Assembly (NCBI GenBank): GCA_963722305.1
Contig: CAVRKE010000002.1
Span: 447,649-511,648, forward strand
Direction: 5' to 3'
From: Candidatus Levyibacteriota bacterium
GTDB taxonomy: Bacteria; Patescibacteriota; Microgenomatia; Levybacterales; UBA12049
DNA: 64,000 bases
In this document: piece after piece, positions 10,619-21,078 of the stretch
How positions within the stretch are numbered: position 1 is the stretch's first letter
How the letters are laid out: every line of letters begins with the position of its first letter
Program-made: the position numbers and the translations under genes
Notes under the pieces: generated by a model
What the model was told of the DNA's origin: nothing
What the model saw: the letters and a program-made list of their open reading frames with translations, nothing else
The model's database searches: none

Positions 10619-10724
10619 TTGTATCATTCCCCTAGAGAAAGGTATACTGAAAACGGAGAGCCAGCGAAAATAGGTTTCGGGATAGTATTTTTACTATGCC
10701 CACTGTTAGAGCAACTGGTCTTCC
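10619..10724 (+). ncRNA. Candidate bridge/seek RNA of IS110-A, 5' part (interrupted by IS3 at 10725).
   Basis: Contains CGAAAATAGGTT (compare the left target flank GAAATAAGT^T) and CTGTTAGAGC (GTTAGA is the reverse complement of the right target flank TCTAAC). Position and length match IS110-type left-end ncRNAs. Confidence 0.4.
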
Positions 10725-10778
10725 TATAATGGACCCCATAATCTGCACAGTCACCTTAGACTAAGATAGAATAGTTCT

Positions 10779-11075
10779 ATGGATCAAAAAATACGCAGAA
10801 TTCATCCACCGGCATTTAAAGCCAGAGTTGCTCTGGAGGCAATTAAGGAACAAAAAACAATTGCGGAGCTGTCAAGTATGTACGGTGTACATTCAACCCA
10901 AATAACGAAATGGAAACGCCGGGCGTTGGAGATTCTCTCGCAAGGGTTTTCAGAACATCTTATTCAACGGAAACGGGATGACCGTGAGCTGGTACAGGAA
11001 TTGTATCGGCAAATAGGAAGATTAAAAGTCGAAGTAGACTTTCTTAAAAAAAAGATGGGCATCTTCGACGAGTAG
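10779..11075 (+). CDS. IS3-family transposase OrfA (HTH plus leucine zipper).
   Basis: 98 aa: ...FKARVALEAIKEQKTIAELSSMYGVHSTQITKWKRR...LKVEVDFLKKKMGIF. Slippery TTAAAAAAAAG at about 11045-11055 near its 3' end. Confidence 0.85.
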   Translation: MDQKIRRIHPPAFKARVALEAIKEQKTIAELSSMYGVHSTQITKWKRRALEILSQGFSEHLIQRKRDDRELVQELYRQIGRLKVEVDFLKKKMGIFDE

Positions 11076-11178
11076 GGATATCCTTACTCCCGGAGAAATT
11101 GCTCTGCACATTAACAAAACAGAAAGCGTATTACCAAAGAGTATACGGGCTGATCTTCTGGATATTTCCAGATCAAGT

Positions 11179-11916
11179 TTGTACTATCAGCCAAGACCGG
11201 TTAAACCCGAGGCACTCATTTTAATGAACAGAATTGATGAGGTATATACTGCCCACCCTTTTTATGGTTCAAGACGTATGGCAAAAGAGGTTGGTGTTAA
11301 CAGAAAACAGGCACAACGCCTGATGCGTGAAATGGGCTATGAGGCATTGTATCCGAAGCCTAATTTGAGTAAACCCGATAAACAACACATGTTCTATCCG
11401 TATTTACTCAAAGGAGTAGTTGCAGGATATCCAAATCATATCTGGGGCACAGATATTACGTATATTCGGATGAAACATGGGTTTGTATATTTAACTGCCT
11501 TTCTTGATTGGTTTACCAGATTTGTTGTTTCCTGGAAGCTCTCAATTACCCTTGAAACAGACTTTTGTTTTGATGCTGCAACTGAAGCAATTGAGAAATT
11601 CGGAAGACCAACCATTATTAATGAAGATCAGGGATCACAAAATACCGATCATCTGATGACAGATCTCTGGGAAAATCACAATGTCAAAATCAGCATGGAC
11701 TCACGGGGACGGGCACTGGACAATATCTTCACCGAGAGGTTATGGAGGAGTGTTAAATATGAAGAGGTATACTTAAAAGAATACGCTACTGTTTTGGAAG
11801 CAAAAGAAAACATTGAAAACTATTTTTACTTTTACAATTATGAAAGAAAACACCAATCGCTTAATTACAGAACACCGGCTGAAATATATTTTGGAAAGGA
11901 GGAAAACTTAGTCTAA
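11179..11916 (+). CDS. IS3-family transposase OrfB (rve DDE integrase core). Expected to be expressed as an OrfAB fusion through a -1 frameshift.
   Basis: HIWGTDITYIRMKHGFVYLTAFLDWFTRFVVSW...INEDQGSQNTDH...ERLWRSVKYEEVY...YNYERKHQSLNYRTPAEIY (D,D,E triad with the K/R signature). Confidence 0.85.
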   Translation: MYYQPRPVKPEALILMNRIDEVYTAHPFYGSRRMAKEVGVNRKQAQRLMREMGYEALYPKPNLSKPDKQHMFYPYLLKGVVAGYPNHIWGTDITYIRMKHGFVYLTAFLDWFTRFVVSWKLSITLETDFCFDAATEAIEKFGRPTIINEDQGSQNTDHLMTDLWENHNVKISMDSRGRALDNIFTERLWRSVKYEEVYLKEYATVLEAKENIENYFYFYNYERKHQSLNYRTPAEIYFGKEENLV

Positions 11917-11956
11917 GTTTAGCCGTTTTACTGTGTTGACAATGGGGTCCACCTTA

Positions 11957-12108
11957 TCCCGGTAAGTAGAAAGCGATCTATTCCTGGTTGTGCTTGAAGG
12001 CACACATAACCAACAAGCATATCGTAGTACTTCCTAAGGCAAGACTTTTAAGCTCTCCTTTTCTTTCTTCTCTTTCTCTTCTTTCTTTAAGGCTTAAAAG
12101 AAAAGGAG
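11957..12108 (+). ncRNA. Candidate bridge/seek RNA of IS110-A, 3' part, together with an RBS-sequestering hairpin upstream of the transposase start.
   Basis: Contains GCGATCTATTCCTGGTTG (it mirrors the element's own right end GATTCCTGGTC). The hairpin CTCCTTTTCTTT...AAAGAAAAGGAG overlaps the AGGAGG Shine-Dalgarno. Confidence 0.4.
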
Positions 12109-19379: not shown

Positions 19380-19419
19380 TAAGGTGGACCCCATTGTCAA
19401 CACAGTAAAACGGCTAAAC

Positions 19420-20157
19420 TTAGACTAAGTTTTCCTCCTTTCCAAAATATATTTCAGCCGGTGTTCTGTAATTAAGCGATTGGTGTTTTCTTTCATAATT
19501 GTAAAAGTAAAAATAGTTTTCAATGTTTTCTTTTGCTTCCAAAACAGTAGCGTATTCTTTTAAGTATACCTCTTCATATTTAACACTCCTCCATAACCTC
19601 TCGGTGAAGATATTGTCCAGTGCCCGTCCCCGTGAGTCCATGCTGATTTTGACATTGTGATTTTCCCAGAGATCTGTCATCAGATGATCGGTATTTTGTG
19701 ATCCCTGATCTTCATTAATAATGGTTGGTCTTCCGAATTTCTCAATTGCTTCAGTTGCAGCATCAAAACAAAAGTCTGTTTCAAGGGTAATTGAGAGCTT
19801 CCAGGAAACAACAAATCTGGTAAACCAATCAAGAAAGGCAGTTAAATATACAAACCCATGTTTCATCCGAATATACGTAATATCTGTGCCCCAGATATGA
19901 TTTGGATATCCTGCAACTACTCCTTTGAGTAAATACGGATAGAACATGTGTTGTTTATCGGGTTTACTCAAATTAGGCTTCGGATACAATGCCTCATAGC
20001 CCATTTCACGCATCAGGCGTTGTGCCTGTTTTCTGTTAACACCAACCTCTTTTGCCATACGTCTTGAACCATAAAAAGGGTGGGCAGTATATACCTCATC
20101 AATTCTGTTCATTAAAATGAGTGCCTCGGGTTTAACCGGTCTTGGCTGATAGTACAA
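19420..20157 (-). CDS. IS3-family transposase OrfB (copy B).
   Basis: Identical to 11179-11916. Confidence 0.85.
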   Translation of the reverse strand: MYYQPRPVKPEALILMNRIDEVYTAHPFYGSRRMAKEVGVNRKQAQRLMREMGYEALYPKPNLSKPDKQHMFYPYLLKGVVAGYPNHIWGTDITYIRMKHGFVYLTAFLDWFTRFVVSWKLSITLETDFCFDAATEAIEKFGRPTIINEDQGSQNTDHLMTDLWENHNVKISMDSRGRALDNIFTERLWRSVKYEEVYLKEYATVLEAKENIENYFYFYNYERKHQSLNYRTPAEIYFGKEENLV

Positions 20158-20260
20158 ACTTGATCTGGAAATATCCAGAAGATCAGCCCGTATACTCTTT
20201 GGTAATACGCTTTCTGTTTTGTTAATGTGCAGAGCAATTTCTCCGGGAGTAAGGATATCC

Positions 20261-20557
20261 CTACTCGTCGAAGATGCCCATCTTTTTTTTAAGAAAGTCT
20301 ACTTCGACTTTTAATCTTCCTATTTGCCGATACAATTCCTGTACCAGCTCACGGTCATCCCGTTTCCGTTGAATAAGATGTTCTGAAAACCCTTGCGAGA
20401 GAATCTCCAACGCCCGGCGTTTCCATTTCGTTATTTGGGTTGAATGTACACCGTACATACTTGACAGCTCCGCAATTGTTTTTTGTTCCTTAATTGCCTC
20501 CAGAGCAACTCTGGCTTTAAATGCCGGTGGATGAATTCTGCGTATTTTTTGATCCAT
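20261..20557 (-). CDS. IS3-family transposase OrfA (copy B).
   Basis: Identical to 10779-11075. Confidence 0.85.
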   Translation of the reverse strand: MDQKIRRIHPPAFKARVALEAIKEQKTIAELSSMYGVHSTQITKWKRRALEILSQGFSEHLIQRKRDDRELVQELYRQIGRLKVEVDFLKKKMGIFDE

Positions 20558-20611
20558 AGAACTATTCTATCTTAGTCTAAGGTGACTGTGCAGATTATGG
20601 GGTCCATTATA

Positions 20612-20811
20612 AAAGCAAGTATCTGATGATAATATCCGGTTGCTTCGGAACCAATAATTATTCTTTTCCATTTCCCGGTAACTCTTTCCAAGAATTGTTC
20701 GATTGCGCCTTTGGTATTTTCTATGAAGAATTGTTCTTTGACACGAGATGACCGATCGATCCTAACGCCAACAAGACTATCTTTGGCCACATCGATACCA
20801 ATAACTTGCAT
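20612..20811 (-). pseudogene. IS110-B transposase, N-terminal fragment (residues 1-67). Disrupted by IS3 copy B.
   Basis: MQVIGIDVAKDS...HQILAF, then reads through into IS3 sequence. Confidence 0.85.
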
Positions 20812-21078
20812 AATTTTTCACCTCCTTCCTTTGCTCTTAATTAAAGAAGGAAGAGAAAGAGAAGGAAGAAATGGAGTTTGCCAAAAAGGTCTCCCGGTGA
20901 TAATATATCGGTAGGCTTGTTTGTGATCAGCGGCTAAAACCCGCAACCTGGAATCGATCGCTTACATTATCGGGGAGACCAGATGCTAGAACGGTGAGCA
21001 CTTTCTCAAGAAGTCTCAAACGTCGTCACGCTGGCTCTCCGATTTCTATTCTAATCCTTCCTTAAGGTAATGATACAA
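20812..21078 (-). ncRNA. Candidate bridge/seek RNA region of IS110-B copy 3 (identical to 14678-14944).
   Basis: Sequence identity with copy 2. Confidence 0.45.

What the first reader, a model, noticed from the sequence alone, without database searches (positions are those of the whole stretch)
10619..21078. Two related IS110-family elements whose left ends look like bridge/seek guide RNAs; the guide segments covary with target flanks and donor ends
Element A is 10619-13108 and element B is 13693-14944, with a second copy at 18592-21078. Both carry a 255-267 nt non-coding left end upstream of a DEDD transposase. The two left ends share a scaffold (TTGTATCATT..CGGAGAGCCAGCG..CTGGTCT(T/C)CC..GCGATC..). 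Three short segments of each left end match that element's own junctions. In B the left end contains GACGACGTT, identical to the left target flank GACGACGT^T. It contains GTTCTA, the reverse complement of the right target flank TAGAAC. It contains GATTCCAGGT, identical to B's own right end ...GATTCCAGGTC. In A the equivalent positions read GAAAATAGGTT (left flank GAAATAAGT^T), GTTAGA (right flank TCTAAC) and ATTCCTGGT (A's right end ...GATTCCTGGTC). So where targets and ends differ between A and B (TAGAAC vs TCTAAC, CCAGG vs CCTGG), the non-coding segment changes in step. That is the hallmark of the RNA-guided target and donor recognition described for IS110/IS621 bridge RNAs. No TSD is formed: for B, both flank pairs rejoin exactly to GGTTCTA^ACGTCGTC. 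Both left ends end in a hairpin that buries the Shine-Dalgarno of the transposase.
Basis: partly seen in the sequence, partly recalled or inferred. Interest (0 to 1): 0.85.

Follow-up and report, generated by a model that had tools for sequence, protein, structure and literature searches.

The report
IS110 insertion sequences with bridge RNAs

Summary
Element A (about 10620-13109, +) and element B (13692-14943 and 18591-21077, -) are IS110-group insertion sequences. A and the second B copy each carry an identical IS3-family insertion. Their transposases align full length with IS621 and keep all five catalytic residues. In 59 distinct left ends from relatives, the RNA folds into two stem-loops with internal loops, and the stems show many compensatory changes. 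The loop segments track the DNA. Left flank versus left target guide gave 302/413 matches against 203±9 when permuted. Right flank versus right target guide gave 119/140 against 69±5. The element's right end versus the left donor guide gave 71/77 against 59±2. No permutation out of 20000 reached any of these values. Unoccupied target sites of exactly the predicted sequence lie in the window at 7149 and 7624. A and B target the same roughly 21-bp intergenic repeat, 5 nt apart on opposite strands. This is a new member of a known kind. RNA expression and activity are inferred, not shown. Two features absent from IS621 were noticed: a helix that competes with the target-loop stem, and a perfect 18-32 nt homopyrimidine mirror repeat present in every family member. 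The mirror repeat is unexplained.

The parts
10611..10619 (+). A left junction: left target AAATAAG (10611-10617) plus core TT (10618-10619)
   Evidence: It matches the A guide AAATAGG+UU at 8 of 9 positions.
10620..10724 (+). A left end, first part. Contains the -10 box TATCAT (10622-10627), scaffold GGAGAGCCAG (10655-10664), LTG AAAUAGG+UU (10668-10676), the upper hairpin, RTG GUUAG+AG (10705-10711) and the 3' strand of the target-loop stem.
   Evidence: Covariance-model hit at 10649-10745, 61 bits.
10725..11956 (+). IS3-family IS (orfA 10779-11075, orfB 11179-11916). [quoted passage not shown]
   Evidence: Removing it gives a sequence identical to the intact A copy L085.
11960..12117 (+). 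A left end, second part. Contains the donor-binding loop (LDG AUUCCUGGU+U 11980-11989; RDG CAU..ACAAG 12005-12017), the homopyrimidine mirror repeat 12060-12088 and the SD GGAGG.
   Evidence: Covariance-model hit at 11938-12037, 59 bits.
12118..13056 (+). A transposase, 312 aa (the ORF also opens at GTG 12109)
   Evidence: Pfam DEDD_Tnp_IS110 plus Transposase_20. NF033542, 200.6 bits.
13057..13114 (+). A right end: -35 TTGACA (13089-13094), left donor ATTCCTGGT (13099-13107), core CT (13108-13109), right target CTAAC (13110-13114)
13687..13729 (-). B1 right end and junction: right target AGAAC (13687-13691), core CT (13692-13693), left donor GATTCCAGGT (13694-13703), -35 TTGACA (13707-13712)
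13730..14677 (-). B1 transposase, 315 aa, intact
   Evidence: D7, E56, D98, D101 and S235 align with IS621 D11, E60, D102, D105 and S241.
14678..14943 (-). B1 left end. Contains -10 TATCAT (14936-14941), scaffold GGAGAGCCAG (14897-14906), LTG GACGACG+UU (14885-14893), the upper hairpin (14861-14884), RTG GUUCU+AG (14852-14858), the donor-binding loop (14765-14837) with LDG 14811-14821 and RDG 14782-14794, the alternative-helix 3' strand (14754-14761), the mirror repeat (14709-14737) and SD GGAGG (14687-14691).
   Evidence: Covariance-model hit at 14762-14912, 143 bits.
14944..14952 (-). B1 left junction: core TT (14944-14945) and left target GACGACG (14946-14952)
   Evidence: It matches the guide at 9 of 9 positions.
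18591..21086 (-). B2: the same element in a second site, with its cores and left target. Its transposase gene is broken by the IS3 copy at 19380-20611 (TSD AAA). The bridge-RNA region is 20896-21046.
7149..7165 (+). Unoccupied copy of the target repeat, AGGTTCTAACGTCGTCT. It begins at the stop codon of ORF 6293-7150. Further copies lie at 7624-7640, 17329-17345 and 23829-23845.

Best explanation
A and B are IS110-group insertion sequences that move by RNA-guided site-specific recombination of the IS621 kind.

Proposed cycle:
1. Excision joins the right end to the left end. This creates a promoter, with TTGACA in the right end, 17 nt of spacer, and TATCAT in the left end.
2. The promoter drives a sense RNA of roughly 180 nt from the left end.
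3. The RNA folds into a target-binding loop and a donor-binding loop.
4. [quoted passage not shown] 5. In the donor loop, AUUCCWGGU+U pairs with the element's right end. AU...ACAAG pairs discontiguously with CT-TGTAT at the element's left end.
6. The DEDD/Ser recombinase cuts the top strands after T9 and exchanges them. The left junction therefore keeps the target's core (TT here) and the right junction keeps the element's core (CT).

Targets. B is programmed for GACGACG-TT-AGAAC. A is programmed for AAATAGG-TT-CTAAC. These are two registers, 5 nt apart on opposite strands, of one intergenic repeat, AAAYAGGTTCTAACGTCGTC.

Shown here: element anatomy, protein homology and catalytic residues, RNA helices with covariation, guide-DNA covariation, and empty sites.

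Inferred from the family: transcription of the RNA, the circular intermediate, and catalysis.
For: Protein:
- Pfam DEDD_Tnp_IS110 plus Transposase_20.
- NF033542 'IS110 family RNA-guided transposase', 182 and 200.6 bits against a cutoff of 140.
- Full-length alignment to IS621 (8WT6), E = 4.7e-21, with D7, E56, D98, D101 and S235 on the IS621 catalytic residues. All five are invariant in 20 relatives.

RNA structure, 59 distinct left ends:
- target-loop lower stem, 97% of cells paired;
- target-loop upper hairpin, compensatory changes in 8 of 8 pairs;
- donor-loop inner lower stem, 91% paired, compensatory changes in 4 of 5 pairs;
- donor-loop upper hairpin, 99.6% paired, compensatory changes in 3 of 4 pairs;
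- whole structure, 84% paired against 46-52% when the partners are slid.
- Many G-C to G-U changes fit the sense strand only.

Guide-DNA covariation:
- LT vs LTG, 302/413 against 203±8.6.
- RT vs RTG, 119/140 against 68.8±5.
- LD vs LDG, 71/77 against 59.2±2.2.
- No permutation out of 20000 reached any observed value, including with one locus per distinct guide (LT/LTG and RT/RTG tests).
- Examples: RTG CUUCC with flank GGAAG, UAGUAU with ATACTA, CCUCGU with ACGAGG.

Copies and sites:
- Three B copies in different contexts share only about 9 nt of left flank and 12 nt of right flank.
- Empty sites of the predicted sequence exist.

Correspondence with IS621:
- The strand rule and the inclusion of the core match the published definition.
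- The donor layout TTGAC(A/T)-...-CT-TGTATCATT matches donors listed in Durrant et al.'s supplement.
- The motif spacing matches IS621: GU then a 9-nt LTG then UGRG; an LDG that stops at core position 8; a discontiguous RDG AU..NCAAG.
- The right core is CT in all 50 unique insertions with both junctions read, while the left core is TT in 37 of them. This fits top-strand joining after T9.
Against: - No transcript, circle junction or activity data are available for these elements.
- Rfam 15 gave no match.
- A covariance model built from this family does not detect the IS621 bridge RNA. Homology of the RNAs therefore rests on architecture and on protein homology, not on RNA sequence.
- The nucleotide after the RTG (C) cannot pair with donor position 7 (T), as the IS621 handshake rule would require.
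- The RDG bulge is 5 nt, against 2 nt in IS621.
- A few loci (L006, L040-L046) have left flanks that do not match the guide. These may be off-target insertions or chimeric contigs.
- A competing helix overlaps the target-loop stem.
Confidence: 0.9

Rival explanations
1. The matches are inherited terminal or sub-terminal repeats. On this view they are protein-binding sites copied inside the left end, and the 'flanks' really belong to the element. No RNA guide would be involved.
For: The donor-side matches (GATTCCAGGT, TGTAT) are indeed element sequence repeated inside the left end and are highly conserved. IS1111 relatives have sub-terminal repeats.
Against: The target-side matches are to host DNA. 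That DNA also exists without any element. It differs between A-type, B-type and 15 or more other guide classes in step with the guide. Sequence beyond 9-12 nt differs among the three B copies. The left match is in the same sense and the right match is reverse-complementary, which is the bridge-RNA rule and not a repeat symmetry.
Confidence: 0.02
2. The guide segments act as DNA, not RNA. In a single-stranded circular intermediate, the folded top-strand left end itself would pair with target and donor.
For: Recent preprints report that IS110 elements excise mainly as a single strand and insert by top-strand transfer. The helices and G-T wobbles would form equally in the top DNA strand, so the covariation cannot separate RNA from sense-strand DNA.
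Against: For IS621 the RNA is necessary and sufficient in vitro and works in trans. The same preprints still require bridge RNA. A conserved promoter forms at the junction directly upstream of the structured region.
Confidence: 0.04
3. The elements are of the bridge-RNA type, but the copies in this window are dead relics. On this view the guide-flank agreement is only a fossil of past insertions.
For: A's RNA gene is split by an IS3 between its two loops, and B2's transposase gene is split by the same IS3.
Against: B1 is complete, with an intact ORF, catalytic residues, left end and right end. It differs from B2 by 1 nt, and from a third copy in another assembly by 1 nt. An intact A copy identical to the repaired A exists. 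Near-identical copies in different sites indicate recent movement.
Confidence: 0.04

Closest known systems
IS621 and the IS110-group bridge-RNA elements (Durrant et al. 2024, PMC11208160; Hiraizumi et al. 2024, PMC11208158)
   Same: - DEDD RuvC-like domain plus Tnp domain with the catalytic Ser; full-length alignment.
- Guide RNA encoded in a long left end upstream of the gene.
- -35 in the right end and -10 in the left end, 17 nt apart across the junction.
- Right donor TGTAT and a YT core with invariant T9.
- Two internal loops: the first variable (target) and the second conserved (donor).
- LTG and LDG read like the top strand. RTG and RDG are complementary to it. The core is included.
- The LDG stops at core position 8, and the RDG is discontiguous.
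   Different: - Only about 27% protein identity, by eye from the alignment.
- RNA sequence similarity is undetectable by covariance model.
- The left donor is ATTCCWGGT rather than ACAGTAT.
- The natural RTG pairs with 5-6 nt beyond the core, against 2 in wild-type IS621.
- The RDG bulge is 5 nt against 2.
- The 5' stem-loop is short or uncertain.
- The position after the RTG does not fit the handshake rule.
- Targets usually carry a TT core while the element carries CT.
- The left end continues for 80-150 nt past the donor loop. That stretch holds a competing helix and a perfect homopyrimidine mirror repeat, both absent from IS621.
IS1111-group elements with seekRNA or right-end-encoded bridge RNA (Siddiquee et al. 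2024, from my own knowledge; IS1111 description)
   Same: The same transposase superfamily, and the same principle of RNA-guided choice of target and donor.
   Different: In IS1111 the RNA lies in a long right end, downstream of the gene, and there are 7-17 bp sub-terminal inverted repeats. Here the right end is only about 50 nt and the RNA is in the left end.
REP-targeting IS110 members such as ISPpu9 and ISPpu10 (abstracts)
   Same: They insert into one short repeated intergenic sequence present in many copies per genome.
   Different: The host here belongs to a group whose relatives are annotated as candidate-phyla-radiation bacteria. The repeat is a different sequence placed right after stop codons. 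Two sister elements use two registers of the same repeat.

Membership tests
IS110-group bridge-RNA insertion sequence | Recombinase with an N-terminal DEDD RuvC-like domain and a C-terminal Tnp domain carrying the catalytic serine | tested here: met
   PF01548 plus PF02371. NF033542 above cutoff. D7, E56, D98, D101 and S235 align with IS621 D11, E60, D102, D105 and S241 and are invariant in 20 relatives.
IS110-group bridge-RNA insertion sequence | Long non-coding left end upstream of the gene and a short right end; no terminal inverted repeats; no target-site duplication beyond the shared core dinucleotide | tested here: met
   The left end is 254-339 nt across the family and the right end about 50 nt. 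Flanks rejoin to the empty-site sequence found at 7149 and 7624.
IS110-group bridge-RNA insertion sequence | The RE-LE junction of the circular form reconstitutes a sigma-70 promoter upstream of the RNA | tested here: met
   By sequence only. TTGAC(A/T) in the right end, a 17-nt spacer (16 in one locus) and TAnnnT in the left end are present in every complete locus. No circle junction was observed.
IS110-group bridge-RNA insertion sequence | RNA made of two stem-loops, each with a large internal loop; the first loop variable and the second conserved | tested here: met
   RNAalifold and pair counts on 59 sequences. MFE folds of A and B give the same two domains. Guide columns of loop 1 vary, while loop 2 reads AUUCCAGGUUG / AC..ACAAGC almost invariantly.
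IS110-group bridge-RNA insertion sequence | 5' stem-loop preceding the target-binding loop | tested here: inconclusive
   A short hairpin (CCUU/AAGG in B) is predicted. The region aligns poorly, and no covariation could be counted.
IS110-group bridge-RNA insertion sequence | [quoted passage not shown] | tested here: met
   Permutation tests: no permutation out of 20000 reached the observed score on either side. B matches 9/9 and 7/7, A matches 8/9 and 7/7.
IS110-group bridge-RNA insertion sequence | LDG and RDG pair with the element's own right end and left end; the RDG pairs discontiguously | tested here: met
   LD vs LDG, 71/77 against 59.2±2.2. For the RDG, AU..ACAAG faces CT-TGTAT with a 5-nt bulge. 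The right donor hardly varies, so that pairing could not be tested by covariation.
IS110-group bridge-RNA insertion sequence | Handshake guides: the positions 3' of RTG and RDG pair with position 7 of the non-cognate DNA | tested here: inconclusive
   On the donor-loop side, C faces target G7 in 49 of 59 left ends, which fits. On the target-loop side, C faces donor T7, which does not fit. There is almost no variation to test.
IS110-group bridge-RNA insertion sequence | The RNA is transcribed, binds the recombinase and is required for recombination | not testable with these tools
   No expression or biochemical data are available.
IS110-group bridge-RNA insertion sequence | RNA detectably homologous to a curated or published bridge-RNA model | tested here: not met
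   Rfam 15 gave no hit. Model R1 built from this family scores the IS621 left end at 7 bits, E = 0.14, in the wrong register. This is a limit of sensitivity at about 27% protein identity, and no published definition requires this feature.
IS1111-group (seekRNA) element | Guide RNA in a long right end downstream of the gene; sub-terminal inverted repeats of 7-17 bp | tested here: not met
   The right end is about 50 nt and holds only the -35 box and the left donor. The structured RNA is in the left end.

The most novel reading that the evidence does not exclude
The stretch of left end beyond the donor loop may be a second functional module that known bridge-RNA elements lack. It has two parts. 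One is a helix that competes with the target-loop stem. The other is a homopyrimidine tract that is a perfect mirror repeat in all 59 distinct left ends examined, in 19 sequence variants, with substitutions always mirrored. Mirror symmetry in a homopyrimidine tract has one known structural meaning, which is triplex formation. Possible forms are H-DNA in the double-stranded or circular element, or a Hoogsteen triplex between the pyrimidine RNA and its own DNA. In the A and B clades an RNA Y·R·Y clamp on the Shine-Dalgarno purines is also possible. Such a triplex could set the ratio of guide RNA to transposase mRNA, or tether the RNA to donor DNA.
Probability: 0.3. Interest if true: 0.75.

Novelty: new member of a known kind. 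Interest (0 to 1): 0.45.

Why it matters
The window gives a clean natural example of bridge-RNA programmability.
- Two sister elements (55% identical transposases, shared RNA scaffold) have diverged mainly in their guide segments. They now hit two registers, on opposite strands, of one genomic repeat.
- Empty sites, occupied sites and an intact reference copy are all at hand.
- The relatives found are annotated mostly as candidate-phyla-radiation bacteria, so the system is common in that little-studied group.
- The family supplies about 45 distinct natural left target guides and 18 right target guides on one scaffold. That could be useful for engineering compact recombinases.
- Targets carry TT and the element carries CT at the core. 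The junctions therefore record that the product sequence follows the top strand, which bears on the current debate over Holliday-junction versus top-strand-transfer insertion.
- The mirror repeat, if functional, would be a new regulatory element in an RNA-guided transposon.

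Tried and rejected
- **Rfam.** Neither the gathering threshold nor E ≤ 10 gave anything meaningful for the left end or for the target repeat.
- **Covariance model R1.** It failed to find the IS621 bridge RNA, even with filters off.
- **First junction model.** A GT core with RT = CTAGAAC was rejected. The family alignment shows an invariant AGGT-CT on the right, and the conserved AG of the RTG faces CT. Empty sites also read TT-AGAAC.
- **Heteroduplex at core position 8.** I considered that the asymmetry (left TT, right CT) contradicts double-strand exchange. 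Hiraizumi et al. already place the bottom-strand cut 4 nt away and invoke repair. The asymmetry is therefore expected, not new.
- **Shine-Dalgarno-burying hairpin.** The fold is no more stable than shuffles, shows no covariation and is missing in distant members.
- **Mirror repeat as a triplex clamp on the SD.** A Watson-Crick purine partner exists only in the A and B clades.
- **Simple promoter and terminator scan of B1.** Uninformative.
- **Look-up of the A protein P0066.** Not on record. Its cluster sibling P0124 worked.
- **Literature.** Searches linking IS110 with triplex or mirror repeats found nothing relevant.

Full report
**What is there.** The region holds three copies of two related IS110-family elements.
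- A lies on the + strand. Its left junction core is at 10618-10619 and its right junction core at 13108-13109.
- B1 and B2 lie on the - strand. B1 has cores at 13692-13693 and 14944-14945. B2 has cores at 18591-18592 and 21078-21079.
- A carries a 1232-bp IS3-family element at 10725-11956 (TSD TCC). B2 carries an identical copy at 19380-20611 (TSD AAA).
- With the IS3 removed, B2 differs from B1 at 1 of 1252 nt.
- With the IS3 removed, A is identical (0 of 1255 nt) to an uninterrupted A copy on an ENA contig (L085). The same contig also carries a third B copy with 1 mismatch (L004).
- A and B share about 60% DNA identity and 55% transposase identity.

**Protein.** Both transposases have the DEDD_Tnp_IS110 and Transposase_20 domains. 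Both pass NCBI's model 'IS110 family RNA-guided transposase'. B aligns over its full length with the IS621 transposase of PDB 8WT6 (E = 4.7e-21). D7, E56, D98, D101 and S235 align with IS621's D11, E60, D102, D105 and S241 (residues named). All five are invariant in an alignment of 20 relatives.

**Junctions.** A metagenome scan gave 80 loci with relatives of 50-88% identity.
- Aligned left and right ends show that every element begins Y-T-TGTAT and ends AGGT-C-T.
- The junctions are therefore LT(1-7)-Y8T9-RD and LD-C8T9-RT. This is the IS621 layout (CT-TGTATTATCC... ...ACAGTAT-CT).
- The predicted empty site for B, GACGACG-TT-AGAACC, reads AGGTTCTAACGTCGTC on the + strand. It occurs unoccupied at 7149-7165, and with small changes at 7624-7640 and 23829-23845. 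Shuffles gave 0.03 matches against 3 found.

**Guides.** The published rule is as follows. [quoted passage not shown] The core is included.
- In B, the RNA reads GU-GACGACG-UU on the 5' side of loop 1. This matches the left flank GACGACG-TT at 9 of 9 positions.
- On the 3' side of loop 1 it reads GUUCU-AG, the complement of CT-AGAAC.
- In A, the same positions read AAAUAGG-UU (flank AAATAAG-TT, 8 of 9) and GUUAG-AG (CT-CTAAC).
- Across unique locus-guide pairs, LT matches LTG at 302 of 413 positions against 203±8.6 for permuted pairs. RT matches RTG at 119 of 140 against 68.8±5.
- No permutation out of 20000 reached either value. The result holds with one locus per distinct guide (45 left guides, 18 right guides).
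- The element's right end matches the LDG at 71 of 77 positions against 59.2±2.2, again with no permutation out of 20000 reaching it.
- The RDG, AU-(5 nt)-ACAAG, faces C8-T9-TGT-AT. IS621's AU-UU-GCAAG does the same.
- The matched flanks are host DNA. They vary with the guide and also exist empty, so the 'inherited terminal repeat' alternative fails.

**RNA structure.** On 59 distinct left ends (alignment A2), RNAalifold finds the target-loop stem, its upper hairpin and the donor-loop upper hairpin. Counting a structure derived from B gives the following:
- target-loop lower stem, 97% paired;
- upper hairpin, compensatory changes in 8 of 8 pairs;
- donor-loop inner lower stem, 91% paired, compensatory changes in 4 of 5 pairs;
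- donor-loop upper hairpin, 99.6% paired, compensatory changes in 3 of 4 pairs;
- whole structure, 84% paired against 46-52% for slid partners.

MFE folds of A and B give the same two domains. A covariance model built from the family finds exactly B1, B2 and the two halves of A in the window, and nothing else. It does not detect the IS621 RNA, and Rfam has no matching family. Membership therefore rests on architecture, guide logic and protein homology.

**Promoter.** Joining the right end to the left end gives TTGACA-AAAGATTCCAGGTCTTG-TATCAT, a 17-nt spacer. The same geometry holds across the family and in donors listed by Durrant et al.. This was read from sequence only.

**Targets.**
- B-type right flanks extend to AGAACCTRTTT.
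- A-type right flanks extend to CTAACGTCGTC.
- Read on one strand, both are the same repeat: AAAYAGG-TT-CT-AA-CGTCGTC.
- A uses the first TT as its core. B uses the AA, read on the other strand, 5 nt away.
- Copies of the repeat in the window begin at or just after stop codons.
- Two sister elements have thus been retargeted, by changes in loop 1, to two registers of one repeat.

**Core asymmetry.** In 50 unique insertions with both junctions read, the right core is always CT. The left core is TT in 37, CT in 12 and GT in 1. Empty sites show TT. This is what top-strand cleavage and joining after T9 predicts. It also agrees with recent preprints proposing top-strand insertion. It is consistent with published mechanisms rather than new.

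**State of the copies.**
- B1 is complete.
- B2 has a broken transposase gene.
- A's RNA gene is cut between its two loops.
- The near-identity of copies in different sites indicates recent activity.

**Extra features, noticed in passing.**
1. A competing helix. GGUCUCCC is the 3' strand of the target-loop stem region (B1 14839-14846). It can instead pair with GGGAGACC just past the donor loop (B1 14754-14761). This helix is 81% paired across the family, with compensatory changes in 6 of 8 pairs, for example GGCACCUC/GAGGUGCC. It excludes the target-loop stem. In the A and B clades a U run follows it.
2. A mirror repeat. Every one of the 59 left ends has, between the donor loop and the Shine-Dalgarno, a perfect homopyrimidine mirror repeat of 18-32 nt.
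   - There are 19 sequence variants, all perfectly symmetric.
   - B differs from the consensus by two mirrored T-to-C changes.
   - For most of the 11 variants tested, shuffled tracts reached the same symmetry in 0-8 of 5000 trials; two shorter ones were weaker (19 and 203 of 5000).
   - In the window, only the three IS110 left ends have such a tract. IS621 and the 27% relatives lack it.
- A Watson-Crick purine partner at the Shine-Dalgarno exists only in the A and B clades.
   - I found no paper linking IS110 with triplex motifs.
   - Mirror symmetry of a homopyrimidine tract points to a triplex, but its function here is unknown.

**Verdict.** The elements are new members of the known IS110 bridge-RNA kind. 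Transcription and activity are inferred. The mirror repeat and the competing helix are the only parts that go beyond what is known.

Noticed in passing
window 12060-12088 (+), 14709-14737 (-), 20843-20871 (-); all 59 distinct related left ends: A perfect homopyrimidine mirror repeat (an H-DNA or triplex motif) of 18-32 nt lies between the donor-binding loop and the transposase SD. There are 19 sequence variants, all perfectly symmetric, with substitutions mirrored in both arms. It is absent from IS621 and from 27%-identical relatives. No literature link was found.
   Followed up: partly
window 14839-14846 with 14754-14761 (B1, - strand); A2 columns 129-136 with 241-248: An alternative helix, GGUCUCCC/GGGAGACC, encloses the donor loop and excludes the target-loop stem. 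It is 81% paired across the family, with compensatory changes in 6 of 8 pairs. A U run follows it in the A and B clades. It may be a switch or a terminator.
   Followed up: partly
window 7149-7165, 7624-7640, 17329-17345, 23829-23845, plus the occupied sites at 10611-10619/13108-13114, 13687-13693/14944-14952 and 18586-18592/21078-21086: The target is a dispersed intergenic repeat, AAAYAGGTTCTAACGTCGTC, that starts at or just after stop codons. It is followed either by CTCGGAGC or by a hairpin with a CTCAGG loop and ATCARGGGGA. A-type and B-type elements use two registers of it, 5 nt apart on opposite strands. Rfam gave no match.
   Followed up: partly
window 10725-11956 and 19380-20611: Two copies of an IS3-family element, identical over the 1230 bp compared, with 3-bp TSDs (TCC and AAA). 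One is inserted between the two loops of A's bridge RNA. The other is inside B2's transposase gene. One IS family is thus inactivating another.
   Followed up: yes
all loci; window junctions of A, B1 and B2: The right junction core is CT in every one of 50 unique insertions. The left core is TT in 37 of them and follows the target. This is a natural marker that the product sequence follows the top strand joined after T9.
   Followed up: yes
window 14914-14919 (B1, - strand) and 10643-10648 (A); A2 columns 39-44: A conserved -10-like hexamer TAnnnT (TAGAAT, TATACT, TAAAAT...) lies 8-10 nt upstream of the invariant GGAGAGCCAGC scaffold. It could be an internal promoter for a shorter RNA, or part of the RNA itself.
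   Followed up: no
L004 and L085 (ENA ERZ25039473 contig_61309): A second assembly carries an intact A copy and a B copy about 1.6 kb apart, in a different gene context from the window. This shows that both elements are mobile in this population.
   Followed up: partly
L006, L040-L046 left flanks: Several loci with the same guide have left flanks that do not match it, while their right flanks mostly do. These may be half-matched or off-target insertions, or chimeric contigs.
   Followed up: no
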